Shown: positions 34,140-61,985 of the stretch, one piece after another
How positions within the stretch are numbered: position 1 is the first letter of the stretch
Layout: each line of letters opens with the position of its first letter
Assembly (NCBI GenBank): GCA_910577435.1
Contig: CAJTLV010000005.1
Span: forward strand, 7,080 to 71,079
Reading direction: 5' to 3'
DNA from: an uncultured Christensenella sp.
Lineage (GTDB): Bacteria > Bacillota > Clostridia > Christensenellales > Pumilibacteraceae
Length of the DNA: 64,000 nt
Translations under genes and position numbers: made by a program
Notes under the pieces: generated by a model
Told to the model about the DNA's origin: nothing
What the model saw: the letters and a program-made list of their open reading frames with translations, nothing else
The model's database searches: none

Positions 34140-34408
34140 AACTGCGCGCCGCTTTTGATAATACGCACCGAAGCGTTCTCCCGCCGGTTAACTCCGCCAA
34201 AGCTACCTTGTGGCACACGGCACATCTTGCTTAGTGCTGCTGCGGTCAAGCCCTGACACGGTTCACAAGCAGACGTTGCACAAGACCTTGACATCAACGC
34301 CACCTAACGGTAACAGACCTTCCATACGCAAACCGAGAGCGGTGTTCGACCCTACTGTAGCGGATTGTAGGTTACAGAGCGCCGCTAACTCTCCGTCTAG
34401 CGCAGTAC
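34140..34408 (-). ncRNA. ffs: signal recognition particle RNA, long Bacillus/Clostridium type with Alu domain (~265 nt)
   Basis: The minus strand aligns by eye along its whole length to B. subtilis scRNA. Examples: GAGUUAGCGGCGCUCUGUAACCUACAAUCCGCUACAGUAGGGUCGAA vs GAGGUAGCGGUGCCCUGUACCUGCAAUCCGCUCUAGCAGGGCCGAA; GGUGGCGUUGAUGUCAAGGUCUUGUGCAA; GAACCGUGUCAGG...GCAGCAGCA helix-8 region. The 5' CUGCGC pairs with the 3' GCGCAG. Confidence 0.85.
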
Positions 34409-49813: not shown

Positions 49814-52800
49814 TCAGTCTCGGTCGTTATTGTTGCAATCCCATATTACCTTGCCTCCACCGGTATCACTACCCCAATTTTCGTCCCAGCCACTCGGTTT
49901 TCTCGCCGCCTCGCAATAAATAATAAGCGACTTACAATAGCGGAACGCGTAATTCCCGATATTTGTCACGTTGATCGGTATCTTTATGCTCGTTAACCCA
50001 ATGCAATATTGGAAGGCTTTCTCCTCGATACTCGTTACACTGTAATTTGCATTTTTGTACGTCACGACGGCAGGAATTTCCACGTTGCCGCTTAAATTGA
50101 TCGGCTGTCCTACAATCGTCGCTACGCCGTCTTTGAGCGAATAACGTAAACCGTCTATTACGGCATATTCGTAGCCGTTTTCATCCTTATTGTTATTCTT
50201 GCAATCCCATACTACCGGATAAAAACTATAAGGCGAAATCCATCCGTCATCCCAACCGCTCGGCTTTTCGGCAGCCTCGCAGTATATCGTGATTGAATTA
50301 TTGTTATAGAATCCATCTTTTTTGATACTCTCCACACTATTCGGTATCGTTACGCTTGTAAGAAAATCACTTGAAGAGAATGCCCCACTCTGAATACTCG
50401 TCACACTGTATTTCACGTTTTTATACGTCACCGTAGCGGGTATATTTGCCGTCGTTATATTCCTTGGTTGTCTTATTACAGTCGCTACGCCGTCTTTGAG
50501 CGAATAACGTAAACCGTCTATCACGGTGTATGCGTAGCCGTTTTCATCTTTATTGTTATTCTTGCAATCCCATACAACGGGACAGCCAAAGCTGCGCCAC
50601 TCAATACCATCCCAACTGCTCGGCTTTTCGGCAGCCTCGCAGTATATAGTTAGCGCGTAGCAGTCACTGAACACATAGTCACCCATACTCGTTACGCCGT
50701 CGGGTATCATTATTTGCGTTATCAAATCGCACCCAGAGAACGCTTTGTCACCTATACTTTCAATACCGCTTCCCATAGTTACGTTTGCAAGCATCTTGCA
50801 TTTATAAAACGCATACCTACCGATGGTCTTAATACTGTCGGACATTGTTATGCTTGTAAGAAAACCGCAATTCTCGAACGCATTGTCCGGAATGCTGTTT
50901 CCGCTTGTTATGACCACCGTCTTTAACGAGTTCTTGGGTATCGACGAAATCGCCGATGCGGGTATTTTCGCGCTCGTTATCGGGCACCCCGAAAACGCGT
51001 TCTCGCCTATGCTCGTCACGCTGTTCGGTATCGTGATCTTCGTTATGCCCGTCATGCTCGCAAAAGCGTTAGCGGGTATGCTTTTCAGCGTGTCGGCGAG
51101 CACTACACTTCCTTTAAGTCCCTTCGGCACGAGCACTATCTCCGTCATGTCGGCGTTGTACAGTATGCCCTTATATACCGAAATGCCGCTGTTCCCCGAC
51201 GTGCACGTTATCGAGTCTATCTCGCACAGGTCGAACGCCCCGTCGGCTATACCGGTCACTTCGTAAGTCGTATCGCCGTACTCCACGCTCGCGGGGATCT
51301 TTATCGTAGTAAGAACCGACGACTGTTTAGCCACCGTCGCTTTGCCGTCTTTGAGCGCGTAGCGTATGCCGTTCACAACGGCGTAGATATATCCGTCGTT
51401 CGCGACGTCGTTATTCCTACTGTCGTATATTACGGGAACTCCGTCATAGCTCCACCCGCATTCCGCTCTCGTCTTATCCGTTTCGAGCACTATCGCGCAA
51501 CCGTCGAACGCGCCCCGTCCGATTTCCGTCACTTTATTAGGTATCTTTACTTTCGTCAAGTTACCGCAATTCTCGAATGCGCGCGCGCCTATCGTCGTAA
51601 GGCTGTCGGGCAACCATACGTATTCGAGCGACATGCAGTTCTTAAACGCGTCGGCGGCTATCTCCGTGCCGCTTATCAGTTCTACGTTGCGCAGTTTGTC
51701 GTTCGCTATATGCTTTGCCGCATATGCGGGGATCTCCGCCTGTTCTATCTTACAGTCCTCGAACGCGCCGTCGGCTATCTCCGTCACGGTCTCCGGTATT
51801 TGCAAAGACGCTATATCCATTCCCGTGAACATACCGCTCGATATGCTCTTCACGCCGCTCGGTATCGTGAGATACCGAGTTTTCTTTACCGACGGATTCA
51901 TCCACAGTATGCTTCCGTTCTTCTTATACAGTATCGCGCCCGTACTCGCATACGCACCGTTGTTGACCGCTACGGTAACGGTCATAATGTTATCGCAACC
52001 GTCTATGAATCCGTCGCCTATCTCCGTCACATCCCGTTCGATCGTCAGATACCGCAAGCCCTTAAAGTCCTTGAACGCGTTCACCGCTATCTTCGTCACG
52101 CCTTTTGGCACTTCGAGCATGCCTATACCGTCGGCGCTCGCAACGCCCGTAACGGTGTTCCCGCTCGTCGTGAGCGTTCCCGCCAACCGTATCCAGTGCG
52201 CCGTCTCTTTCAGTTTTCTCGCCGTCGCCGCGCCGGACAAATTCGCCGTCGTCACCGTCTCGGCGGGATCGTCCGTCCTGAGCGCGTACGCTTTCCACGT
52301 CGCGTTGCTCGCGAATGTAACGCTCGAAAGCGCGGGCTGGTCGCCGAAACACCCTCTGCCTATGTACCACGTCGTTTCGGGGATAGTCACGCTCGCAAGC
52401 GCGCCGTCCTCGTTGATCACGCTGTTTCCGCCGAACGCACTCGCGCCTAAGTATTCCGCAGACCGCAAATTTATATTCGCAAGCGAATAACACCCGTCGA
52501 ACGCCTCGTTCGATACCGTCTTCGTCCCGCCGAGATCGAGTTTCGTCATTGCGTTGCAGGCGCGGAACGCCCTGTACCCGACGCTCTTCAAGCTGTCCGG
52601 CAGTTTAAGTTCGGTCACGTTTATGCTCTCGAACGCGCTCTCGCCTATGCTATCGAGCGTCGACTCTTGCGCGAACGTGAGAGTCTCTATGTTGTTCCAT
52701 AAGAACGCGCTCTCGCCTATGGTTTTAACGTTCTTGCCGATCGTGACGCTCTCGATCGTCTTGCAACCGTAGAACGCCCAGCGATTGACCGTTTCGGCGT

Positions 52801-53701
52801 TGACCGTTATATCCGTCACCGCTCTGCCGTTTATGTACAGCTCCGCTTTCCCGTTCGAGAGAGGGTTCGCCTTTTTGTCGGACGAGCAGTCCATTTCTAT
52901 ACCGCACCATTTGTCTATGCTCCCCGCATATTTCACTTCGAGAAGCGACCGCATTCCATCCGTTCCGAACGCGTCGTAATTTATCTTTTTAAGCGAATTG
53001 GGCAAGCCTAACTCCACAAGCGCCGCACAGTCGCAGAAAGCCTCGCTCGGTATCTCCGTAACGCCCTCGCCTATGGTCACACTCTCCAGCTTGGTCGCAT
53101 TCTTGAACGCTCCCGTACCTATCTCCGTCACGCTGTCCGGAATGATTATTCCCGTAAGCGACCGCGAGTTTTTGAACGCGTCATTCGCAATAGCCGTCAC
53201 GGGCTTGCCGTTGTGCGTTTCGGGCACTTCCACGTCGCCGCTGAGCCCGCCTATGCCGCGCACTATATACCCGCTTCCGTCGTCCATTCGCGCAAAGTCG
53301 AAACTCACCGCCCACACCGCATAAAGCGTCGTGTCGCCCTCCAACTCGTCGCTTTCGAAGTTCCACAGCGCTTCGCCGTCCGTATCCTTCGCCCATCCGC
53401 TGAACGCATACTGCGCACGCTCGGGCATTCTCAACGGCTCGTCGAGCTCTTTTGCCGTGACGGTATACGTCGCCGTCTTTCCGTCCGACGATATGACCGC
53501 GCCGTCGTCGACGGTCTCGCCTTCTATCTCTATCTCGGCGTCGAACTTGCCGCCGTTCGCGTCGAACACCACCGTGTACGTCACGCCCGTCGGTTCGTCG
53601 GGCGGATCGTCGCTCTTGTCCCTGTTGCACGCCGCCATACATAGCGTGCTCGCCAGTGCGCCTAACAGCGCAGTCACCGTTACGATGAACTTCTTTTTCA
53701 T
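49814..53701 (-). CDS. giant surface lipoprotein with BspA-type leucine-rich repeats (LRR_5) and an N-terminal Listeria-Bacteroides repeat
   Basis: 1295 aa. MKKKFIVTVTALLGALASTLCMAAC lipobox. YTVVFDANGGKF...FSGWAKD repeat. Dozens of IP.SVT.IG..AF..C..L units. C-terminal modules are repeated. Confidence 0.85.
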   Translation of the reverse strand: MKKKFIVTVTALLGALASTLCMAACNRDKSDDPPDEPTGVTYTVVFDANGGKFDAEIEIEGETVDDGAVISSDGKTATYTVTAKELDEPLRMPERAQYAFSGWAKDTDGEALWNFESDELEGDTTLYAVWAVSFDFARMDDGSGYIVRGIGGLSGDVEVPETHNGKPVTAIANDAFKNSRSLTGIIIPDSVTEIGTGAFKNATKLESVTIGEGVTEIPSEAFCDCAALVELGLPNSLKKINYDAFGTDGMRSLLEVKYAGSIDKWCGIEMDCSSDKKANPLSNGKAELYINGRAVTDITVNAETVNRWAFYGCKTIESVTIGKNVKTIGESAFLWNNIETLTFAQESTLDSIGESAFESINVTELKLPDSLKSVGYRAFRACNAMTKLDLGGTKTVSNEAFDGCYSLANINLRSAEYLGASAFGGNSVINEDGALASVTIPETTWYIGRGCFGDQPALSSVTFASNATWKAYALRTDDPAETVTTANLSGAATARKLKETAHWIRLAGTLTTSGNTVTGVASADGIGMLEVPKGVTKIAVNAFKDFKGLRYLTIERDVTEIGDGFIDGCDNIMTVTVAVNNGAYASTGAILYKKNGSILWMNPSVKKTRYLTIPSGVKSISSGMFTGMDIASLQIPETVTEIADGAFEDCKIEQAEIPAYAAKHIANDKLRNVELISGTEIAADAFKNCMSLEYVWLPDSLTTIGARAFENCGNLTKVKIPNKVTEIGRGAFDGCAIVLETDKTRAECGWSYDGVPVIYDSRNNDVANDGYIYAVVNGIRYALKDGKATVAKQSSVLTTIKIPASVEYGDTTYEVTGIADGAFDLCEIDSITCTSGNSGISVYKGILYNADMTEIVLVPKGLKGSVVLADTLKSIPANAFASMTGITKITIPNSVTSIGENAFSGCPITSAKIPASAISSIPKNSLKTVVITSGNSIPDNAFENCGFLTSITMSDSIKTIGRYAFYKCKMLANVTMGSGIESIGDKAFSGCDLITQIMIPDGVTSMGDYVFSDCYALTIYCEAAEKPSSWDGIEWRSFGCPVVWDCKNNNKDENGYAYTVIDGLRYSLKDGVATVIRQPRNITTANIPATVTYKNVKYSVTSIQSGAFSSSDFLTSVTIPNSVESIKKDGFYNNNSITIYCEAAEKPSGWDDGWISPYSFYPVVWDCKNNNKDENGYEYAVIDGLRYSLKDGVATIVGQPINLSGNVEIPAVVTYKNANYSVTSIEEKAFQYCIGLTSIKIPINVTNIGNYAFRYCKSLIIYCEAARKPSGWDENWGSDTGGGKVIWDCNNNDRD
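50118..50575 (-). repeat. intragenic tandem repeat, period 363 nt (121 codons)
   Basis: The 95-nt blocks at 50118-50212 and 50481-50575 are ~94% identical (GTCGCTACGCCGTCTTTGAGCGAATAACGTAAACCGTCTAT...CTTGCAATCCCATAC). A more diverged third unit lies nearer the 3' end. They encode the VVWDCKNNNKDENGY.Y.VIDGLRYSLKDGVAT modules. Confidence 0.8.
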
Positions 53702-53735
53702 ATCCTACTTTCTCCTTTTATTAAACGGAACCGAC

Positions 53736-53875
53736 GACTGAGTGACGCGAGCAAAATTGCGTCGGCGATTTGCGTGAGACGAAATACAATATAACCCGCT
53801 CGTAGCGGCGCTACGTGTGGGTTATATTGTGGCGCGTATTCGCGTAAATCGACAGCAAGGTTGCCGCACGAACTT
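53736..53875 (-). repeat. structured intergenic element, copy 1 (homologous to 58143..58281), in the 5' leader of the LRR gene
   Basis: Blocks shared with copy 2 (plus-strand reading): GACTnAGTGACGCG, ATTGCGT, CGTGA, TACAAT, CGTAGC, CTACGTG, TCGCGnAAATnnACAGCAAG, GCACGAACT. The central hairpin has a 12-bp outer stem (ACAATATAACCC/GGGTTATATTGT) and an inner CGTAGC/GCTACG stem. Strand is inferred from context only. Confidence 0.5.
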
Positions 53876-53894
53876 ATTCGACGGTTCCAAACAC

Positions 53895-53923
53895 AAAAAA
53901 GACCCCGACGGGTTTTTCCGTCG
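53895..53923 (-). terminator. terminator-like hairpin plus U-tract (ends prs transcription and/or the short promoter-proximal RNA)
   Basis: Minus strand reads CGACGG-aaaaac-CCGTCG, then gggtc, then T6. Confidence 0.5.
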
Positions 53924-53992
53924 AAGTCCTTTGTCGTTTCAATGATTTTTTCGGTGCGCGAGAAATTTCGGGCGCTTACTCTATTTAGAGCG

Positions 53993-54003
53993 CCCCCCCC
54001 CCC
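53993..54003. repeat. homopolymeric C11 (G11 on the minus strand) tract
   Basis: Eleven consecutive C counted across the 53991/54001 line break. Lies inside the transcribed leader. Confidence 0.9.
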
Positions 54004-54068
54004 AGCATTATTACATTATTATAACTCACTTCTCGCACCGTGTGACCTCTGTATATATATTTGTATGA

Positions 54069-54097
54069 ATTATACACCTTATGAACGTCTTTGTCAA
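54069..54097 (-). promoter_or_regulatory. consensus SigA-type promoter firing toward the LRR gene
   Basis: Minus strand reads TTGACA, a 17-nt spacer, then TATAAT, about 360 nt upstream of ATG 53701. Confidence 0.55.
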
Positions 54098-54253
54098 CAC
54101 TTTTCCGTTATCTCGTCGGCGGGAAAACGAACTCGTTATAGATTTCTTATTCGTTACCGTTACGGTCCTATTCCTTCCTCGAGACACTTTCCCCGAAGCG
54201 GAAAACATCATTGAGTTATGCGCTTCGCCGCTTAATTCCGCATTCCGAACTTA

Positions 54254-55219
54254 TCAGTCGTACAGTTTGGACACGGGCAGGTCGGCAAAAATAGCGGCTA
54301 TGGCTTCCGCGAAGATAGGCGCGACCGATACGGGTATGATCTTGTCGATCTGTCTTTCGACGGGTTGCTCGATAGTATCGAGAATGAACAGCTTTTTAAT
54401 TACCGAATTTTGCAGGCGTTCGATCGCGGGACCGGACAGCACGGCGTGCGTACAGCAAGCGTACACGTCGGTTGCACCGCCCACTTCGACAAGCGCTTTC
54501 GCGCCCTGAACGATAGTACCTGCGGTATCTATCATATCGTCTACTATGAGACAGCGCTTGCCTTTAACGTCGCCTACTATATTCATAACTTCCATTACAT
54601 TGGCTTTGGGGCGGCGCTTATCGACGATAGCGAGCGTCTTATCGAGCTTGGTCGCCATTTTGCGTGCGCGCGCAACCGAGCCGACGTCGGGAGAAACTAT
54701 AATGAGATCGTCGCCTGCCTCTTTGATGAAGTCCTGACCGGCGATCGCTTTTGCGAGGATAGGCACGCCCAAAAGGTGGTCGACGGGAATATCGAAAAAT
54801 CCCTGTATCTGCGCGGCGTGAAGATCCATAGTCAACACCCTGTCCGCGCCCGCTTTGCAAATAAGATCGGCAACAAGTTTGGCTGTGATAGGATCGCGCG
54901 CACGCGCCTTTCTGTCCTGACGCGCGTAACCGAAGTACGGCATAACCGCAGTGATTCGTCCGGCGGAAGCGCGTTTCAACGCGTCGATCATAACGAGCAG
55001 TTCCATAAGATTGTCGTTTACGGGCGTGGAAGTCGATTGTATTACGAACACGTCGCACCCGCGCACCGACTCGCCTATCGAAACCGAGATTTCGCCGTCG
55101 CTGAAATGACCGACTTCGCAATCGGAAAGTTTCATTTTGAGCCGTTCCGAAATCGAGCTTGCGAGCGCTTTACACGAATTTCCGCAGAACAGTTTAATCT
55201 TGTTGCCGTGAGCTATCAT
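54254..55219 (-). CDS. prs: ribose-phosphate pyrophosphokinase
   Basis: 321 aa. PRPP-binding DDMIDTAGT and [10 protein letters not shown] motifs. Conserved glmU-prs order. Confidence 0.97.
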
Positions 55220-55263
55220 TGGTTCCTCCGAATTTTACATTGCCTTACGGCAATAGATATAAC

Positions 55264-56418
55264 TTATTGTTGTCCGCCGTTCGGCTTGCCTGCGGCATCG
55301 ATCACGCCGCCGTTTTCGGGCAGGTTCTGCTCGATAGGCGCGTAAAGATTGCCCTTCCAATCGCGCTTTACATACTGTCTGCCGCGCGCTACGGCAAGCG
55401 CCTGCTTGGGTACGGAATCGGTTATCGTCGATCCCGCCGCGATAAACGCCCTGTCCTCTATCGTGACGGGCGCTATTATGTTAGCGTTAGAGCCGATAAA
55501 CACGTTGTTCCCGACTACCGCACGATGCTTGTTCTTTCCGTCATAGTTGACGAATACGACCCCGCAACCGATGTTGCACTTTTCGCCGAGCTGTGCGTCG
55601 CCCACATAAGAAAGATGGCTGACCTTTGTTCCGCTGCCGATAATGCAGTTTTTCAACTCTACGAAATCGCCGATACGACACGCCTCGCCCACTACGCTGT
55701 CCGGACGCAGATACGCAAAAGGTCCGACGGTAGTGTATGAGCCGACGGCGCTTTTGTACAGTCTCGAACTGTCTATGCGCGCGCCCGCGCCTATAATGCA
55801 GTCCTCGATGTAGTTATTGGGCATAATGACCGCGCCTTCCTTTATGACGGTCTTACCCTTAATAAAGTTGTACGGCTCGACGGTAGCGCCGCGCGAAATG
55901 ACCGCGTCGCTATCGATGTAAGTATTATTGAAGTCCGGAATATTGACGCCGTTCGACGCGTGGTAGCGCAGTATTCGCCGACGAATAACGTCGGTGACGC
56001 GCGACAGCGATTCCGCGTCGACTACAGTATCGAACTCGCCGTTTGCCGGCTCTGCGTTCAGATACAGCGAATCCATCTCGAACAAATGCTCGGTGCGAAA
56101 AACGAACCCGCGCGGCAGTTTCATCGAGTTGTACTTACCGGCACGCAAACGATCCACCGCAGCCGCGATCGTTTTTGCGGTGACCAGCGGAGTATCGCAG
56201 TAAAGTATAACGGTGACGCTACGCGCGCGGTCGACAGAGCTTCGCACGGCTTCGCAAAGATTGACCACCTGCGAACCCTCGACGGTGCGGCAAGGCACGC
56301 CGATAGCGCTCCCCGCCCATTCGGAGAGAGACTTCCCCATTACCCGAATATTGCCGACCTCGCCGAGCGCTTTATTGTTAACGCGCAACACAATTCCGTT
56401 TACATCGAAATCAATCAT
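55264..56418 (-). CDS. glmU: GlmU-like protein: intact left-handed beta-helix acetyltransferase domain, short and degenerate N-terminal nucleotidyltransferase domain
   Basis: 384 aa versus ~455 typical. The C-terminal domain matches closely (SHLSYVGDAQLGEKCNIGCGVVFVNYDGKNKH...AAGSTIT). The N-terminus lacks LAAGxGTRM (it reads GIVLRVNNKALGEVG) but keeps the CDTPL motif. Confidence 0.75.
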   Translation of the reverse strand: MIDFDVNGIVLRVNNKALGEVGNIRVMGKSLSEWAGSAIGVPCRTVEGSQVVNLCEAVRSSVDRARSVTVILYCDTPLVTAKTIAAAVDRLRAGKYNSMKLPRGFVFRTEHLFEMDSLYLNAEPANGEFDTVVDAESLSRVTDVIRRRILRYHASNGVNIPDFNNTYIDSDAVISRGATVEPYNFIKGKTVIKEGAVIMPNNYIEDCIIGAGARIDSSRLYKSAVGSYTTVGPFAYLRPDSVVGEACRIGDFVELKNCIIGSGTKVSHLSYVGDAQLGEKCNIGCGVVFVNYDGKNKHRAVVGNNVFIGSNANIIAPVTIEDRAFIAAGSTITDSVPKQALAVARGRQYVKRDWKGNLYAPIEQNLPENGGVIDAAGKPNGGQQ

Positions 56419-56496
56419 ACGAATATTATAACGCTTTTAATCGTCGCCGTCAACCGATATTAAGCGCGAAAATCAAAAAAGCCCTTTCGGGCTTTT

Positions 56497-58074
56497 TTAC
56501 AGTGTTGCGATATACTCGTCGTAAGTGACGGGACGGTCGAACGTCTTTTCGCAGTTCTCGATGATGATTATTCTATTAGCTACCGACGACATAATTTCCT
56601 CGTCGGCGGTGATGAACAGTATGGGTGCTTTGAAGTTGATCATTCCCTTATTGAGCGACGTGATACTCTCCAAATCGAGATGGTTCGTCGGTTCGTCGAA
56701 TATAAGGAAATTGGGCGACAGCAACATCATTCGCGCAAGCATACACCGCGCCTTTTCGCCGCCCGACAACACGTTTGCGGGCTTTAACGCCTCGTCTCCC
56801 GAAAATAACAGCCGACCGAGCCACGAGCGCAGGTACTCCTGTTCGTGGTTTTCCGACCACTGATCTATCCACTTTACGAGCGACAGCGCACAGCCGTCGA
56901 AGTATTTGTCATAGTTCTGCGGCATATATGCGGGCTTGATGTTCTTGCCCCAAATGACCCGACCCGAATCGGGTTTGCCGTCGCCGAAAATGCAGTCGAA
57001 AAGCTCGGCTACGGAACGCGAATTATCGGTGATAAAGCCTATCTTGTCGTCGCGACCGACGGTGAACGACACGTCCTTGAAGTACCCTTCCTTAGTCAGT
57101 TTTTCGACGCGCAAAATGTCGTTGCCCGGATCGCGCTCGAACTTATAGTCTATATACGGGTATTTGCGCGACGACGGCTTTATATCCTGAATTTCTATTT
57201 TGTCAAGCTCGCGCTTTCTGCTCGTCGCCTGTTTGGACTTACTTGCGTTCGCCGAAAACCGTGCGATAAACTCGCGAAGTTCTTTGATGCGTGCTTCCGC
57301 CTTTTTGTTCGCCTCGCGCTGTTGACGCAGTATGAGCTGGGACGATTCGTACCAGAAATCATAGTTGCCCACGAACATATTGATTGCGTTATAATCCACA
57401 TCGCAAATGTGCGTGCAAACCTGATTGAGAAAGTGACGGTTATGCGAAACGACGAGTACGGTCGCCTGTTCGAGCGACTTCAAATACTCCTGCAACCACC
57501 GCACTGTCTTTATGTCGAGGTTGTTTGTCGGCTCGTCGAGAAGCAGTATGTCGGGCTTGCCGAACAGACACTGCGCCACAAGCACCTTTACCTTGACTTT
57601 CGGCTCGATCTCGGACATCTGCGTATCGAACAGCGATTGGTCGATGCCTATACTGTTGAGCAAGCTCTCCGCCTCTACCTCGCACTCGTATCCGCCCAAC
57701 TCGCCGTAACGGGTTTCCAGTTCTGCGGCGAGATTGCCGTCCTCTTCCGAAAAGTCGGACTTGGCGTACAGCACGTCGCGCTTATGCCTAACGTCGGCAA
57801 GCTCCTTGTGTCCGCAAATCACCGCCTCTCGCACGGTAAACCCGTCGTATGCGTTTTGATTCTGTTCGAGCACAGACATACGCTCGCCTTTGCCTATCAC
57901 TATCTCGCCCTTGCTCGGTTCGATCTTGCCGGACAGAAGTTTCAAGAAGGTCGACTTGCCCGCGCCGTTCGCACCGATAATGCCGTAGCAGTTTCCGCTC
58001 GTGAACTTGATATTGACGTTCTCGAAAAGAACGCGCGTGCCGAATTGAAGTTTTACGTTGTTTACGTTTATCAT
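56497..58074 (-). CDS. ABC-F family ATPase (translation factor / ribosome-protection type)
   Basis: 525 aa. Two ABC cassettes (GANGAGKST...LLLDEPTNNLD and LSGGEKARCMLARM...LIFDEPTNHLD) joined by a charged linker. No TM domain. Confidence 0.9.
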   Translation of the reverse strand: MINVNNVKLQFGTRVLFENVNIKFTSGNCYGIIGANGAGKSTFLKLLSGKIEPSKGEIVIGKGERMSVLEQNQNAYDGFTVREAVICGHKELADVRHKRDVLYAKSDFSEEDGNLAAELETRYGELGGYECEVEAESLLNSIGIDQSLFDTQMSEIEPKVKVKVLVAQCLFGKPDILLLDEPTNNLDIKTVRWLQEYLKSLEQATVLVVSHNRHFLNQVCTHICDVDYNAINMFVGNYDFWYESSQLILRQQREANKKAEARIKELREFIARFSANASKSKQATSRKRELDKIEIQDIKPSSRKYPYIDYKFERDPGNDILRVEKLTKEGYFKDVSFTVGRDDKIGFITDNSRSVAELFDCIFGDGKPDSGRVIWGKNIKPAYMPQNYDKYFDGCALSLVKWIDQWSENHEQEYLRSWLGRLLFSGDEALKPANVLSGGEKARCMLARMMLLSPNFLIFDEPTNHLDLESITSLNKGMINFKAPILFITADEEIMSSVANRIIIIENCEKTFDRPVTYDEYIATL

Positions 58075-58102
58075 TTACAGATCCTTGATATTAATAATTC
58101 AC

Positions 58103-58128
58103 AAAAAAACGGGCTATGACTGCCCGTT
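58103..58128 (-). terminator. intrinsic terminator between rpsR and the ABC-F gene
   Basis: Minus strand reads AACGGGC-agtcata-GCCCGTT followed by T7, 28 nt upstream of ATG 58074. Confidence 0.65.
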
Positions 58129-58142
58129 GTTTCGGGCGCGCA

Positions 58143-58281
58143 GACTAAGTGACGCGCCGAGATTGCGTAAGAAATTTTCGTGATACAATGGATATATGTT
58201 GCTGTTCGTAGCCTTGTCCTACGTGCCAAACATATAGCCGCACGCATCGCGGAAATTTACAGCAAGATCGGTGCACGAACT
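58143..58281 (-). repeat. structured intergenic element, copy 2 (homologous to 53736..53875)
   Basis: Same conserved blocks and spacing as copy 1 (139 vs 140 nt). The outer stem of the central hairpin has a different sequence here (TATATGTT/AACATATA) while the inner CGTAG/CTACG stem is kept. Confidence 0.5.
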
Positions 58282-58297
58282 CTTCTGCGCACCCTTA

Positions 58298-58579
58298 TTA
58301 CTCGTCGCGGAACGGCATAAGCGCCATTATACGAGCGCGCTTGATGGCGGTCGTTACGTCGCGCTGATGGCAGGCGCAAAGACCGGAAGCACGGCGGGGC
58401 AAAATTTTGCCGTTTTCGGCGGTGTACTTTTTAAGTCTGTCCACGTCCTTGTAGTCGACGTGGTCGATATGACCCTGACAGTATTCGCAAACGCGCTTTT
58501 TTACTTGGCGCGGGCGACGACGTCCGCCCTTGTCGTCGGAATCGTTTGCCTTGTTTCTGGGTTTATTATTCTTTTCCAT
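58298..58579 (-). CDS. rpsR: 30S ribosomal protein S18
   Basis: 93 aa. KKRVCEYC...[11 protein letters not shown]...GKILPRR...CACHQR. Basic N-terminal extension. Confidence 0.95.
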
Positions 58580-60638: not shown

Positions 60639-61985
60639 TTATTTGCGCAGTACCATCGCCTTGATGTCGTTGACTGCAGTGCGCATTTTCTGGTCGGAAA
60701 CGAGCGCGGCGGAGATTTTGTCGCGCGCGTGCATAACCGTCGTATGCTCCCGACCGCCGAAAAACTCACCTATGGAGGCAAGCGGCAACGTCATAAGCTC
60801 GTTTATAAGATAAATCGCGACCTGACGGGGTTCTACGACTTCTTTGTTCTTCTTTTTGCCGACAACGTCCGCTTTTTGCACGTTGAAATAGCGACACGTG
60901 CAATCGATGATCTCGTCGGCGGTTATCTCGTCGCACTCTTGCACTCTGTAATCTTTGAGCGCTTCCGCGCAGATGTTCAAATCGACCTTGCTTCCGCGCA
61001 GTTTGGCTAGGAATATTACCTTAGTAAGTACCCCTTCCATCTCGCGAATACTGCCCGTAACGCGCTCGGCTATGTATTCGAGCGGTGCGTCGGCGATGTT
61101 TACCTTTGCGTCCTGCGCCTTGCGTTGAAGTATCGCTATGCGCGTTTCGAGATCGGGCGGTTGCACGTCGACTACAAGACTGGACATAAACCGCGACCGC
61201 ACACGATCGTCCAGGTCGGGAATATCCTGCGGCGGACGGTCGGACGCGAACACCATCTGTTTGCCGGAGTTTTGCAATTCCTCGAAAATATGGAATATCT
61301 CTTCCTGCGTCGACGGTTTTTTCGCGATGAACTGCACGTCGTCTATCATAAGAAGATCTATACTGCGGTATTTTTCACGAAACGCCTGATTACTGCCGCC
61401 GCTCGCCGTCCGTATCGATTCGATGAACTCGTTTAGAAAAGTCTTGGACGACACGTACATTATTTTGAGATTGGAGGTCGACATCTTTACCTCGTTGCCG
61501 ATCGCGTGCATAAGGTGTGTTTTGCCCAATCCCACGCCGCCGTAAATGAACAACGGGTTATATACCTGACCGGGCGCTTCGGCTACGGCGCGCGCGGCGG
61601 CGGCGGAAAGCTCGTTGCACTTGCCTACCACAAAGTTTTCGAAATTGTATTTGGGATTGATCGTGCCGTATTCGTTGCGCGGCGGCTCTTCGTGGTGCGC
61701 AATCGGCGCGGGCGCGGGCACGCCGTCCTCGTCATCAGAAACGATGGCTATGTCGCTCGGCGCGCCGTCTATACGGCGGAGTATCGCTTTGAACAGCGGC
61801 ATATACTTGGCGGCAACCTCGTTGCGTGATGTTGCCGTCGCCGTGCTCAATATCAAAACTCCGTCCTCTATCTTTACGGGACGCAATGGTTTGATCCAAA
61901 CGTCAAAGCCTAGCGAGTAGACCTCTACTTCCAGCTTGGACAGCATTTCCTGCCATATTGCATTTGCGTCGTTAATCATTGCCAC
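60639..61985 (-). CDS. dnaA: chromosomal replication initiator protein DnaA
   Basis: 448 aa with a GTG start (an ATG lies two codons in). AAA+ motifs NPLFIYGGVGLGKTHL and LLMIDDVQF. C-terminal DNA-binding domain VAIYLINELMTLPLASIGEFFGGREHTTVMHA. Confidence 0.97.
   Translation of the reverse strand: MAMINDANAIWQEMLSKLEVEVYSLGFDVWIKPLRPVKIEDGVLILSTATATSRNEVAAKYMPLFKAILRRIDGAPSDIAIVSDDEDGVPAPAPIAHHEEPPRNEYGTINPKYNFENFVVGKCNELSAAAARAVAEAPGQVYNPLFIYGGVGLGKTHLMHAIGNEVKMSTSNLKIMYVSSKTFLNEFIESIRTASGGSNQAFREKYRSIDLLMIDDVQFIAKKPSTQEEIFHIFEELQNSGKQMVFASDRPPQDIPDLDDRVRSRFMSSLVVDVQPPDLETRIAILQRKAQDAKVNIADAPLEYIAERVTGSIREMEGVLTKVIFLAKLRGSKVDLNICAEALKDYRVQECDEITADEIIDCTCRYFNVQKADVVGKKKNKEVVEPRQVAIYLINELMTLPLASIGEFFGGREHTTVMHARDKISAALVSDQKMRTAVNDIKAMVLRK

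What the first reader, a model, noticed from the sequence alone, without database searches (positions are those of the whole stretch)
53736..53875. A ~140-nt intergenic element present twice in the window, with compensatory changes in its central hairpin (copy 1, leader of the LRR lipoprotein gene)
53736-53875 and 58143-58281 have the same orientation and almost the same length (140 vs 139 nt). They share near-identical blocks at both ends: GACTnAGTGACGCG, ATTGCGT, CGTGA, TACAAT, then TCGCGnAAATnnACAGCAAG and GCACGAACT. The centre is a two-tier hairpin. Its inner stem is conserved (CGTAGC/GCTACG vs CGTAG/CTACG). Its outer stem has a completely different sequence but still pairs: ACAATATAACCC/GGGTTATATTGT (12 bp) in copy 1 and TATATGTT/AACATATA (8 bp) in copy 2. 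Conserved flanks combined with covarying stems is the signature of a functional RNA rather than a decaying duplication. I could not match it to any riboswitch, leader or sRNA family I know. Both copies lie immediately 5' of minus-strand genes, the LRR lipoprotein and the ABC-F ATPase.
Basis: seen in the sequence. Interest (0 to 1): 0.65.

Follow-up and report, generated by a model that had tools for sequence, protein, structure and literature searches.

The report
Mobile hairpin repeat in gut Clostridia
The two look-alike stretches are copies of a small non-coding, hairpin-forming mobile DNA repeat scattered through the gene spacers of some uncultured gut Clostridia; it is a new family of a known kind of element, with one unexplained rule: its better-folding strand always lies opposite to the local direction of genes and replication.

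Summary
Each copy is a ~160-nt rod-like hairpin (53727-53888 and 58134-58294). Scans found 19 more copies in 7 uncultured Clostridia MAGs and two metagenome samples, giving 18 independent loci. Covariation is very strong: 28 of 51 pairs show double changes, and no shuffle reaches the observed values.

It is not a leader, riboswitch or ordinary sRNA gene.
- The fold is selected on the strand opposite to the LRR and ABC-F genes (G.U 51 vs A.C 13; all 20 copies fold better on that strand).
- Copies sit in spacers between unrelated housekeeping genes, usually 0-6 nt behind a stop codon.
- They come and go. Strains of this species lack copy 1, leaving one copy of a 4-nt direct repeat. A relative shows an exact empty site for another copy with a 4-5-nt repeat. 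Relatives lack copy 2 and the copy in a tRNA-Trp leader.
- Conserved blocks reach roughly 10-70-fold the flank depth in two gut metagenomes.

Closest known are MITE-like repeats such as bcr1 of Bacillus cereus. Three features are unusual:
- variable termini with invariant internal loops;
- the folding strand on the lagging-sense strand at all 18 loci;
- orthologous copies more conserved than the neighbouring genes.

The mobilising enzyme and the folding molecule (ssDNA or RNA) remain unknown.

The parts
53727..53888 (+). Copy 1 of the hairpin repeat (162 nt). The + strand is the well-folding strand. It lies between a terminator and the ribosome-binding site and start of the LRR lipoprotein gene, which is on the minus strand with its start at 53701.
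   Evidence: 163.8 bits on +, 52.6 on -. Absent from strains in runs X13 and X18.
58134..58294 (+). Copy 2 of the hairpin repeat (161 nt). On the minus strand it sits between the rpsR double stop (TAATAA, 58295-58300) and the rpsR terminator.
   Evidence: 133.9 bits on +, 27.6 on -. No element between rpsR and the ABC-F gene in relatives L001 and L003, nor next to either gene in L002, where other genes separate them.
53741..53749 (+). Basal block AGTGACGCG, of which GTGACGCG is invariant in all 20 copies. Together with 53867-53875 it forms a conserved 3x4 internal loop (GAC/ACGA) flanked by helices AGU/ACU and GCG/YGC.
   Evidence: Invariant columns in alignment A2; structure.
53867..53875 (+). 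Basal block GCACGAACT, of which GCACGAAC is invariant. It is the 3' partner of the basal loop. GCACGAAC was part of both scan patterns, so its invariance is partly by construction.
53723..53726 (.). Left copy of the 4-nt direct repeat AAAC flanking copy 1.
   Evidence: The empty allele in X13/X18 reads TTTTATT-T-AAC-ACAAAA, where the filled allele reads TTTTATT-AAAC-[element]-AAAC-ACAAAA.
53889..53892 (.). Right copy of the direct repeat AAAC flanking copy 1.
58100..58133 (-). Intrinsic terminator of the rpsF-ssb-rpsR operon (CGGGCAgtcataGCCCG followed by T7 on the minus strand). It is host sequence, not part of the element.
   Evidence: Read from the sequence. A homologous-looking terminator follows rpsR directly in L001, which lacks the element.
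53895..53918 (.). Two-way terminator hairpin (ACCCcgacGGGT with A and T runs) next to copy 1. It is host sequence and ends the ~170-nt transcript from the promoter at 54097-54069.
   Evidence: Read from the sequence. Retained in the empty allele.

Best explanation
Both stretches are copies of a non-coding, non-autonomous mobile repeat of about 160 bp, resembling a MITE, that forms one long rod-like hairpin.

Shown here:
- The family is dispersed: 2 to at least 6 copies per MAG were found with a strict pattern, and many more are present in some gut metagenomes.
- Copies are present or absent between strains and between species. In the two cases where the empty site was seen, a short A/T-rich direct repeat of 4-5 nt flanks the insert.
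- Copies land in the short spacers of ordinary operons, typically 0-6 nt behind a stop codon and 7-60 nt before the next start codon.
- The rod is kept by compensatory change on one strand only.
- At all 18 loci that strand is the C/T-rich strand, antisense to most genes. I take this to be the lagging-sense strand, that is, the leading-strand template.

Inferred:
- The fold and its invariant internal loops are needed in single-stranded form by an unidentified trans-acting enzyme that moves the element.
- The orientation rule reflects either replication-coupled insertion or survival of the orientation in which the strongly folding strand is rarely exposed. Sedentary integrons offer a precedent: the recombinogenic attC strand lies on the leading-strand template.
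- Most copies are carried in operon mRNAs in the weaker, complementary orientation. At least some have acquired a local role, because orthologous copies are better conserved than the genes next to them.

My odds: mobile dispersed repeat about 0.85; the fold acts as ssDNA in a replication-linked process about 0.35.
For: Family and fold.

Folding strand:
- G.U 51 vs A.C 13 among 1019 pair cells, while the eight other mismatch types total about 51.
- Every one of 20 copies folds 3.6-28.5 kcal/mol better on that strand.
- RNAalifold gives -53.3 on that strand and -32.6 on its complement.

Mobility:
- X13 and X18 contigs skip 53707-53889, with 16 nt in their place.
- An X56 contig joins L023 3026 to 3190, with 5 letters (CTAAT) shared by both sides, and X58 shows the same joint shifted by one base.
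- L001 and L003 have no element between rpsR and the ABC-F gene. In L002, where other genes separate the two, neither spacer holds one.
- L030-L033 have tRNA-Trp 10-15 nt after the same promoter, without the element that L018 carries there.
- L011 and L023 are 94% identical copies at different loci of one MAG.
- Conserved blocks reach depths of 820-1407, against about 10-100 on the flanks, in X57 and X58, where 311 and 213 contigs were laid.

Placement and orientation. Two loci are informative. In L018 the element lies in the leader of a lone opposite-strand tRNA-Trp, and in L012 it lies between two small opposite-strand genes. Both still obey the strand rule, so orientation follows the regional strand rather than the adjacent transcript.

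Local constraint: orthologous copies in the recA-ruvA spacer of 4 species-level MAGs are 93-99% identical. The flanking coding DNA is 77-95% identical and the adjoining 45-nt spacer is scrambled. One pair differs as G.U in one copy against U.G in another.

Precedents:
- bcr1 (~155 bp, 5-bp repeats, compensatory changes, part of UTRs and operon spacers): PMC3184786, PMC6199540, PMC3446304.
- REPs overlapping stop codons: PMC3733652.
- The attC folding strand on the leading-strand template: PMC5371416.
Against:
- The termini are the most variable part and the invariant bases are internal, the reverse of a classical MITE with conserved terminal inverted repeats.
- Flanking direct repeats are not uniform. 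Clear cases are AAAC and (C)TAAT, but L018 shows GCTTTTA (7 nt), L013 shows a 16-nt repeat that includes the end of the upstream gene, and most older copies show none in a fixed frame.
- Purifying selection and a wobble-to-wobble change in orthologous copies argue for a function in place. A purely selfish element does not predict that.
- The strand that folds well is not the lagging-strand template, so the IS200/IS605 peel-and-paste rule does not fit. That rule is cited from my own knowledge of Ton-Hoang et al. 2010.
- Replication direction is inferred only from GC skew and gene majority in pieces of 3.6-24 kb.
Confidence: 0.6

Rival explanations
1. A family of structured non-coding RNAs made from the well-folding strand, acting either as a trans-acting sRNA or as a cis-antisense RNA to the operon spacer. 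On this view the rod and its invariant loops are a protein-binding RNA.
For: - The G.U excess and wobble-to-wobble changes are the classic signature of an RNA helix.
- Orthologous copies are under purifying selection.
- In L018 a strong promoter (TTGACT-17-TACAAT with an upstream TG) ends about 7 nt before the element on that strand, and tRNA-Trp follows at once. A discrete rod RNA would be made there and released by RNase P.
- In RNA-labelled run X25, isolated contigs coincide with both window copies (53693-53890 and 58064-58278) while the neighbouring gene bodies are uncovered.
Against: - Only L018 has a credible promoter.
- That promoter is the ordinary tRNA-Trp promoter, which relatives keep without the element, and L018 is the most degenerate copy (117 bits, 10 broken pairs).
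- In most loci the upstream flank is the antisense of the next gene's start, and it is not conserved.
- There is no terminator after the element, except by accident at copy 1.
- The RNA runs have depth of only about 3, carry no strand information and may contain DNA.
- An orientation tied to the regional strand rather than to any transcript is not expected of an RNA gene.
Confidence: 0.12
2. An adopted cis-acting mRNA element. As part of the operon transcript, the complementary hairpin would act as an intercistronic stabiliser or RNase III site, or would hold the stop codon and the next start codon together for translational coupling.
For: - Placement 0-6 nt after stop codons and 7-60 nt before the next start, inside operons.
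- In L013, L019 and L020 the upstream ORF runs into the outer arm and ends at the element's conserved TAA.
- Orthologous conservation.
- Contig 58001-58336 in X49 runs through rpsR, the element and the ABC-F start.
- REP, ERIC, Correia and bcr elements are known to act this way (PMC3733652, PMC3184786).
Against: - The mRNA-sense strand is the poorer folder in all 20 copies. It carries the 51 C.A/A.C mismatches, and G.U on that strand is no commoner than any other mismatch.
- The L012 and L018 copies are not in that orientation relative to their neighbouring transcripts.
- Copy 1 lies behind a terminator, not behind a gene.
Confidence: 0.15
3. One reading: a leader, riboswitch or attenuator controlling the LRR lipoprotein and ABC-F genes.
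For: Both window copies lie upstream of minus-strand genes, and copy 2 is followed on the minus strand by a terminator.
Against: - The fold is on the wrong strand.
- The terminator appears to belong to rpsR, because a homologous-looking one follows rpsR without the element in L001.
- Strains lack copy 1 yet keep the gene.
- The other 16 loci flank unrelated genes.
- There is no Rfam match.
Confidence: 0.02
4. An attC-like recombination site of an integron-type system, that is, folded bottom-strand recombination by a tyrosine recombinase.
For: Several traits match attC (PMC5371416, PMC2727003):
- It sits directly behind stop codons.
- The folding strand is antisense to the gene and lies on the leading-strand template.
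- It is an imperfect palindrome with conserved unpaired bases.
Against: - The AAC...GTT core triplets are present in only about 7 of 21 copies, and the invariant bases lie elsewhere.
- Copies are single and dispersed among core genes, not in cassette arrays.
- What comes and goes is the element alone, not a gene plus a site.
- No integrase was seen in any locus.
Confidence: 0.03

Closest known systems
bcr1 (and bcr2, bcr3) repeats of the Bacillus cereus group, MITE-like (Okstad 2004; Klevan 2007; Kristoffersen 2011; as summarised in PMC3184786, PMC6199540, PMC3446304)
   Same: - A Firmicutes element of about 155 bp with no coding capacity.
- Non-conserved distribution between close strains.
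- Flanked by about 5-bp A/T-rich direct repeats.
- Base-pair compensatory changes keep a stable fold.
- Found in UTRs and operon spacers.
- The mobilising enzyme is unknown.
   Different: - There is no sequence similarity.
- bcr1 folds into a cruciform-like shape with two stem-loops, whereas this element is a single rod.
- bcr1 has a fixed TTTAT target, which was not seen here.
- In what I read, nothing is reported for bcr1 about a strict strand or orientation rule, or about a fold selected on the strand opposite to the mRNA.
ERIC/IRU, YPAL, Correia/NEMIS, RUP and EFAR (bacterial MITE-like intergenic hairpin repeats; listed in PMC3733652 and PMC3184786)
   Same: Elements of 100-170 bp that form long hairpins, sit next to coding regions, are co-transcribed, and vary in presence between strains.
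   Different: Those elements have conserved terminal inverted repeats, which identified or presumed transposases recognise, and from my own knowledge they occur in both orientations. Here the termini vary, the internal loops are invariant, and all 18 loci share one orientation.
REP/REPIN elements mobilised by RAYT (Y1 HUH) transposases
   Same: Hairpin-forming extragenic repeats that lie behind genes and sometimes supply or overlap the stop codon (PMC3733652). They are thought to act as folded single strands, and they persist vertically for long periods.
   Different: - REP units are 20-40 bp with a terminal GTAG or CGTC tag, and REPINs are doublets of such units.
- Here GTAG/CTAC occurs only at the apex of one continuous 160-nt rod.
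- Short flanking direct repeats were seen here, which HUH enzymes do not make.
- Whether carrier genomes have a RAYT gene could not be tested.
Integron attC sites, such as the VCR repeats of Vibrio sedentary integrons
   Same: They lie behind stop codons, fold on the strand complementary to the gene, and have conserved unpaired bases. [quoted passage not shown]
   Different: This family has no conserved AAC/GTT core, no arrays and no cassettes. Its neighbours are housekeeping genes, and the element alone is gained or lost.

Membership tests
MITE (miniature inverted-repeat transposable element) | Small, non-coding, multi-copy and dispersed | tested here: met
   21 copies at 18 loci in 7 MAGs, the window and two metagenome samples. 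Core depth is about 10-70 times flank depth in X57 and X58. No conserved ORF is expected, because variation is compensatory in stems.
MITE (miniature inverted-repeat transposable element) | Presence/absence between close relatives at otherwise identical sites | tested here: met
   Empty sites were seen for copy 1 (X13, X18), for L023 (X56, X58) and for L018 (L030-L033). For copy 2, L001 and L003 lack the element between rpsR and the ABC-F gene.
MITE (miniature inverted-repeat transposable element) | Target-site duplication of fixed length | tested here: inconclusive
   AAAC flanks copy 1 and (C)TAAT flanks L023, both checked against empty sites. L011 has AAT. L018 shows 7 nt, L013 shows 16 nt, and most older copies show none in a fixed frame.
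MITE (miniature inverted-repeat transposable element) | Conserved terminal inverted repeats shared with an autonomous IS | tested here: not met
   The termini pair but are the least conserved part (helix 1: 10 of 13 pairs covary). Only a subfamily shares GRAAC...GTTYC. No parent IS was found in any locus, and whole genomes could not be searched.
REP/REPIN-RAYT | Units of 20-40 bp with a terminal GTAG or CGTC tag, as singles or inverted doublets | tested here: not met
   The element is one continuous rod of about 160 nt. GTAG/CTAC is present only at the apical stem CGUAGC/GCUACG, not at unit ends (definition from PMC3733652).
REP/REPIN-RAYT | A RAYT (Y1 transposase) gene in carrier genomes | not testable with these tools
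Integron attC | Conserved R''/R' core with AAC and GTT triplets at the base of the hairpin | tested here: not met
   GAAC...GTTC is present in about 7 of 21 copies. The others have GACAC, GAGCT, GGACT, GATGT and so on.
Integron attC | Arrays of gene cassettes, each ending in a site | tested here: not met
   There is a single copy per 3.6-14-kb locus, the neighbours are core genes, and the element alone is polymorphic.
Described RNA family (Rfam 15, including the uup, raiA, Clostridiales and 6S families) | A match to a curated covariance model | tested here: not met
   No match at gathering score anywhere in the window except SRP RNA. No match at E<=10 in 53600-58500 on either strand.
Independent sRNA gene | Its own promoter and terminator on the folding strand | tested here: not met
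   Only L018 has a good promoter, and that is the host tRNA-Trp promoter. There is no terminator after the element, except the host one next to copy 1.
IS200/IS605-type single-strand element (PATE) | Active (folding) strand on the lagging-strand template, with no target duplication | tested here: not met
   The folding strand is the C-rich strand, antisense to the gene majority, at all 18 loci, so it is inferred to be the leading-strand template. Short direct repeats were seen at two verified empty sites. The family rule is cited from my own knowledge.

The most novel reading that the evidence does not exclude
The element may belong to a so far unrecognised class of hairpin elements that live and act as a folded single DNA strand tied to the replication fork. 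An unknown enzyme would recognise them through invariant internal loops rather than through their ends. [quoted passage not shown] Earlier unchecked notes from this scan describe similar stop-codon-anchored hairpin families in several other phyla, some also folding on the strand complementary to the mRNA. If that pattern holds, the phenomenon is general and has no known machinery.
Probability: 0.15. Interest if true: 0.75.

Novelty: new variant of a known kind. Interest (0 to 1): 0.4.

Why it matters
For annotation, the finding removes a false lead: this is not a regulator of the LRR lipoprotein or ABC-F genes. It also defines a repeat family, with alignment A2 and model R1, that can be masked or tracked in mouse-gut and other gut Clostridia MAGs. 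It marks sites of strain-level variation and probably of assembly breaks.

Biologically, the family combines three things:
- mobility;
- strong selection for a fold on one strand, the one opposite to the mRNAs;
- a strict strand rule at 18 of 18 loci.

Together these make it a clean test case for how small hairpin repeats move and why hosts keep them. That question is still open for bcr1, ERIC and many REP-like families.

Tried and rejected
- **Rfam:** searched at gathering score and at E<=10. Nothing matched except SRP RNA elsewhere in the window.
- **Whole-genome census of the window's own genome:** Laying Logan contigs at 80% likeness did not recover other copies.
- **Plasmids, phages and viral contigs:** no match. 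Three of the six metagenome pattern hits (L024, L026, L028) and two genome hits (L014, L015) were chance matches.
- **RNA evidence:** four RNA-labelled runs were laid (X25, X26, X49, X50; X51 gave almost nothing). Depth was 2-6, they are contigs without strand information, and they may contain DNA, so nothing could be concluded.
- **'Master gene' idea:** the promoter-rod-tRNA-Trp arrangement in L018 looked like a master gene. Relatives have the same promoter and tRNA without the rod, so I rejected it.
- **Promoter scan:** upstream of all copies on both strands, only L018 scores well.
- **Fixed 5-nt target-duplication frame across all copies:** only L023 (5/5), L013 (4/5) and L020 (3/5) fit.
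- **Guide-like complementarity between the outer arm and the target:** clear only in L013.
- **GTAG-tagged REP and attC readings:** defining features not met.
- **K-turn reading of the GAC/ACGA loop:** tandem G.A pairs are possible, but the 2+1-nt bulge does not fit the standard motif. This is inspection only and was not tested.
- **Mutational bias as the cause of the G.U excess:** the expected replication and transcription biases (C to T on the leading/coding strand) would enrich G.U on the other strand. This is inference only.

Full report
**1. The observation**

They are longer than 140 nt, though. In each copy a further outer stem, different in sequence between the copies, closes the structure:
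- GGAACCG.CGA / UCG.CGGUUCC in copy 1;
- GGGCGCGCAGA / UCUGCGCaCCC in copy 2.

The units are therefore 53727-53888 and 58134-58294. Each folds as one continuous rod. On the + strand the energies are -72.8 and -49.9 kcal/mol (z -6.5 and -4.0). On the - strand they are -52.5 and -41.5. BLAST finds no third copy in the window. Rfam gives nothing here, at gathering score or at E<=10.

**2. More copies**

- The pattern AAATNNACAGCAAGN{5,9}GCACGAAC found 20 places in the species-representative genomes. Eighteen are true copies, in seven uncultured Clostridia MAGs (one of them labelled Roseburia sp.), with 1-6 per MAG. Two are chance hits.
- A three-block pattern found one further locus in metagenomes (L025 = L027) and the window's own copy 2 (L029). 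It found nothing in viral contigs.
- Plasmid and phage collections hold nothing similar.
- Model R1 scores all copies at 117-187 bits on one strand and 17-62 on the other.

**3. The fold is selected, and on one strand**

On the 20-sequence alignment, RNAalifold predicts 51 pairs, and 28 of them show changes on both sides. With the structure fixed:
- 93.7% of cells pair, compared with 80.4% in shuffles and 30-42% with slid partners;
- no shuffle out of 500 reaches the observed covariation.

Invariant bases sit mainly in and around two internal loops: GAC/ACGA near the base, and GUNRG/ACA further in. They also sit in the apical stem CGUAG/CUACG. The outer and middle stems vary freely.

G.U pairs number 51 and A.C pairs 13, while the eight other mismatch types together number about 51. 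So A.C is at background level and G.U is strongly enriched. All 20 copies fold better on this strand, by 3.6-28.5 kcal/mol. The consensus energy is -53.3 on this strand and -32.6 on its complement. In the window the folding strand is the + strand, antisense to the LRR and ABC-F genes.

**4. Where the copies sit**

Oriented by the folding strand, nearly all neighbouring genes are on the other strand. The gene on the 3' side ends 0-6 nt from the element. In L013, L019 and L020 it ends inside the element, at the conserved TAA. The next gene starts 7-60 nt from the other end.

By reading the translated proteins myself (no family search was run), the neighbours look like ordinary housekeeping genes of many kinds:
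- recA-ruvA;
- dnaB;
- aroA-aroC;
- era-recO;
- an aminotransferase and thrC;
- thrS;
- ddl;
- rpsR and the ABC-F gene.

**5. It comes and goes**

- *Copy 1.* Contigs of strains of the same species in runs X13 (8.8 kb, depth 21) and X18 skip 53707-53889. The empty allele reads TTTTATT-T-AAC-ACAAAA. The filled allele reads TTTTATT-AAAC-[element]-AAAC-ACAAAA.
- *L023.* A 2-kb contig in X56 joins 3026 directly to 3190, with five letters (CTAAT) fitting both sides. X58 shows the same joint shifted by one base.
- *Copy 2.* In L001 (ABC-F 90% identical) and L003 (79%), the spacer between rpsR and the ABC-F gene holds no element. In L002 (86%) other genes separate the two, and neither spacer holds one. 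L001 keeps a homologous-looking rpsR terminator.
- *L018.* In the MAG behind L018 the element lies between the tRNA-Trp promoter and the tRNA. Four relatives have the same promoter 10-15 nt from the tRNA and no element.
- *Recent spread.* L011 and L023 are 94% identical copies at different loci of one MAG.
- *Abundance.* In gut metagenomes X57 and X58 the two most conserved blocks reach summed depths of 820-1407, against about 10-100 on the flanks. 311 and 213 contigs were laid there, with many different continuations. The family can therefore be highly repeated.

**6. Orientation**

At all 18 independent loci the folding strand is the C-rich, T-rich strand of the surrounding 3.6-24 kb (GC skew -0.02 to -0.13).

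Two loci separate replication from transcription. In L018 the neighbouring transcript (tRNA-Trp, a lone gene opposite to all its neighbours) runs with the folding strand. In L012 two small genes do the same. Yet both loci obey the regional rule. I therefore read the rule as tied to the replication strand: the folding strand is the lagging-sense strand, that is, the leading-strand template. This rests on skew and gene majority, not on a mapped origin.

**7. Constraint in place**

The recA-ruvA spacer carries the element in four species-level MAGs (L006, L007, L010, L022).
- The element is 93-99% identical between them.
- The flanking, mostly coding, DNA is 77-95% identical.
- The roughly 45-nt non-element spacer next to it is scrambled.
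- One pair differs as G.U in one copy against U.G in another, so both sides changed and the wobble stayed on the folding strand.

That points to selection at the locus, not only during spread.

**8. What it is**

Four traits place it with the MITE-like hairpin repeats of bacteria:
- multi-copy and non-coding;
- gained and lost between strains;
- flanked by short A/T-rich direct repeats at the two verified sites;
- lodged behind stop codons.

The nearest described case is bcr1 of the Bacillus cereus group. It is about 155 bp, has 5-bp flanking repeats, keeps its fold by compensatory changes, occurs in UTRs and operon spacers, and its mobilising enzyme is unknown. REPs that overlap stop codons are also on record.

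The family departs from a classical MITE in several ways:
- The termini are variable and the invariant bases are internal.
- The flanking repeats are not uniform (7 nt in L018, 16 nt in L013).
- The orientation is fixed.

[quoted passage not shown] See the membership table.

**9. How it most likely works**

Shown: mobility, the one-strand fold, the placement and the orientation rule.

Inferred: an unidentified enzyme recognises the folded single strand through the invariant loops. The strand rule then arises in one of two ways. Either insertion is coupled to replication, or what survives is the orientation in which the strongly folding strand is seldom single-stranded. [quoted passage not shown]

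The main rivals are an RNA made from the folding strand and an adopted role of the complementary hairpin in the operon mRNA.
- *For the RNA rival:* the wobble signature and the L018 arrangement.
- *Against the RNA rival:* there are no promoters elsewhere, and the L018 promoter is the host's.
- *Against the mRNA-element rival:* the mRNA-sense strand is the poorer folder in every copy.

The available RNA runs are too thin and carry no strand information.

**10. Earlier notes of this scan**

Unchecked AI notes from this scan list similar stop-codon-anchored hairpin families in other phyla. One raises the same question of which strand folds. I treat these as leads only. A note on this genome read copy 2 as wired to a terminator/antiterminator switch for the ABC-F gene. 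The homologous-looking terminator that follows rpsR in L001, without the element, argues against that.

**11. Verdict**

The object is a new family of mobile hairpin repeat, not a gene-specific regulatory RNA. The strand rule, the internal rather than terminal conservation, and the selection in place are worth a follow-up. Otherwise it belongs to a known kind.

Noticed in passing
window 53895-54097 (minus strand): A perfect TTGACA-17-TATAAT promoter drives a ~170-nt transcript that ends at the two-way terminator next to copy 1. It has no Rfam match at E<=10. An RNA-labelled contig in X25 covers 54000-54302.
   Followed up: no
window 53993-54003: The C11/G11 run varies in length between strains: 2 bases shorter in X13 and X20, and 1 base shorter in X18. 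Either real slippage or an assembly effect could explain this.
   Followed up: partly
window 53594-53622: Strains in X13 and X18 carry about 18 extra bases and several substitutions in the signal-peptide region of the LRR lipoprotein gene, so the N-terminus of this surface protein is allelic.
   Followed up: no
L013 6605-6797 (minus strand): A 16-nt direct repeat, TCCGTTTCGCCYTTAG, flanks this copy. The right-hand repeat encodes the last codons of the upstream gene and forms the 3' arm of the outer stem. The insert's 5' arm is therefore complementary to host target sequence. I have no explanation for this.
   Followed up: partly
L018 3532-3842 (minus strand): The element is inserted between the tRNA-Trp promoter and the tRNA, so the tRNA is made with a ~170-nt structured leader. 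The same site is empty in L030-L033.
   Followed up: yes
L001 and L002, compared with window 49814-54253: Relatives have spoIIID between prs and greA. The window instead has the 1295-aa LRR lipoprotein gene, the small promoter-terminator unit and copy 1. The whole segment looks like a replacement.
   Followed up: no
window 34142-34405 (minus strand): Bacterial large SRP RNA (Rfam RF01854, 167 bits). It is the only Rfam match in the window.
   Followed up: no
window 56493: An 8-base insertion polymorphism (TTTTTGCA) just downstream of the ABC-F gene's stop codon, in the spacer before the next gene, in strains of X13 and X20.
   Followed up: no
window 1-64000: GC skew is negative on the + strand throughout, including both sides of dnaA (60639-61985). 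No skew switch, and so no sign of an origin, appears next to dnaA in this window.
   Followed up: no
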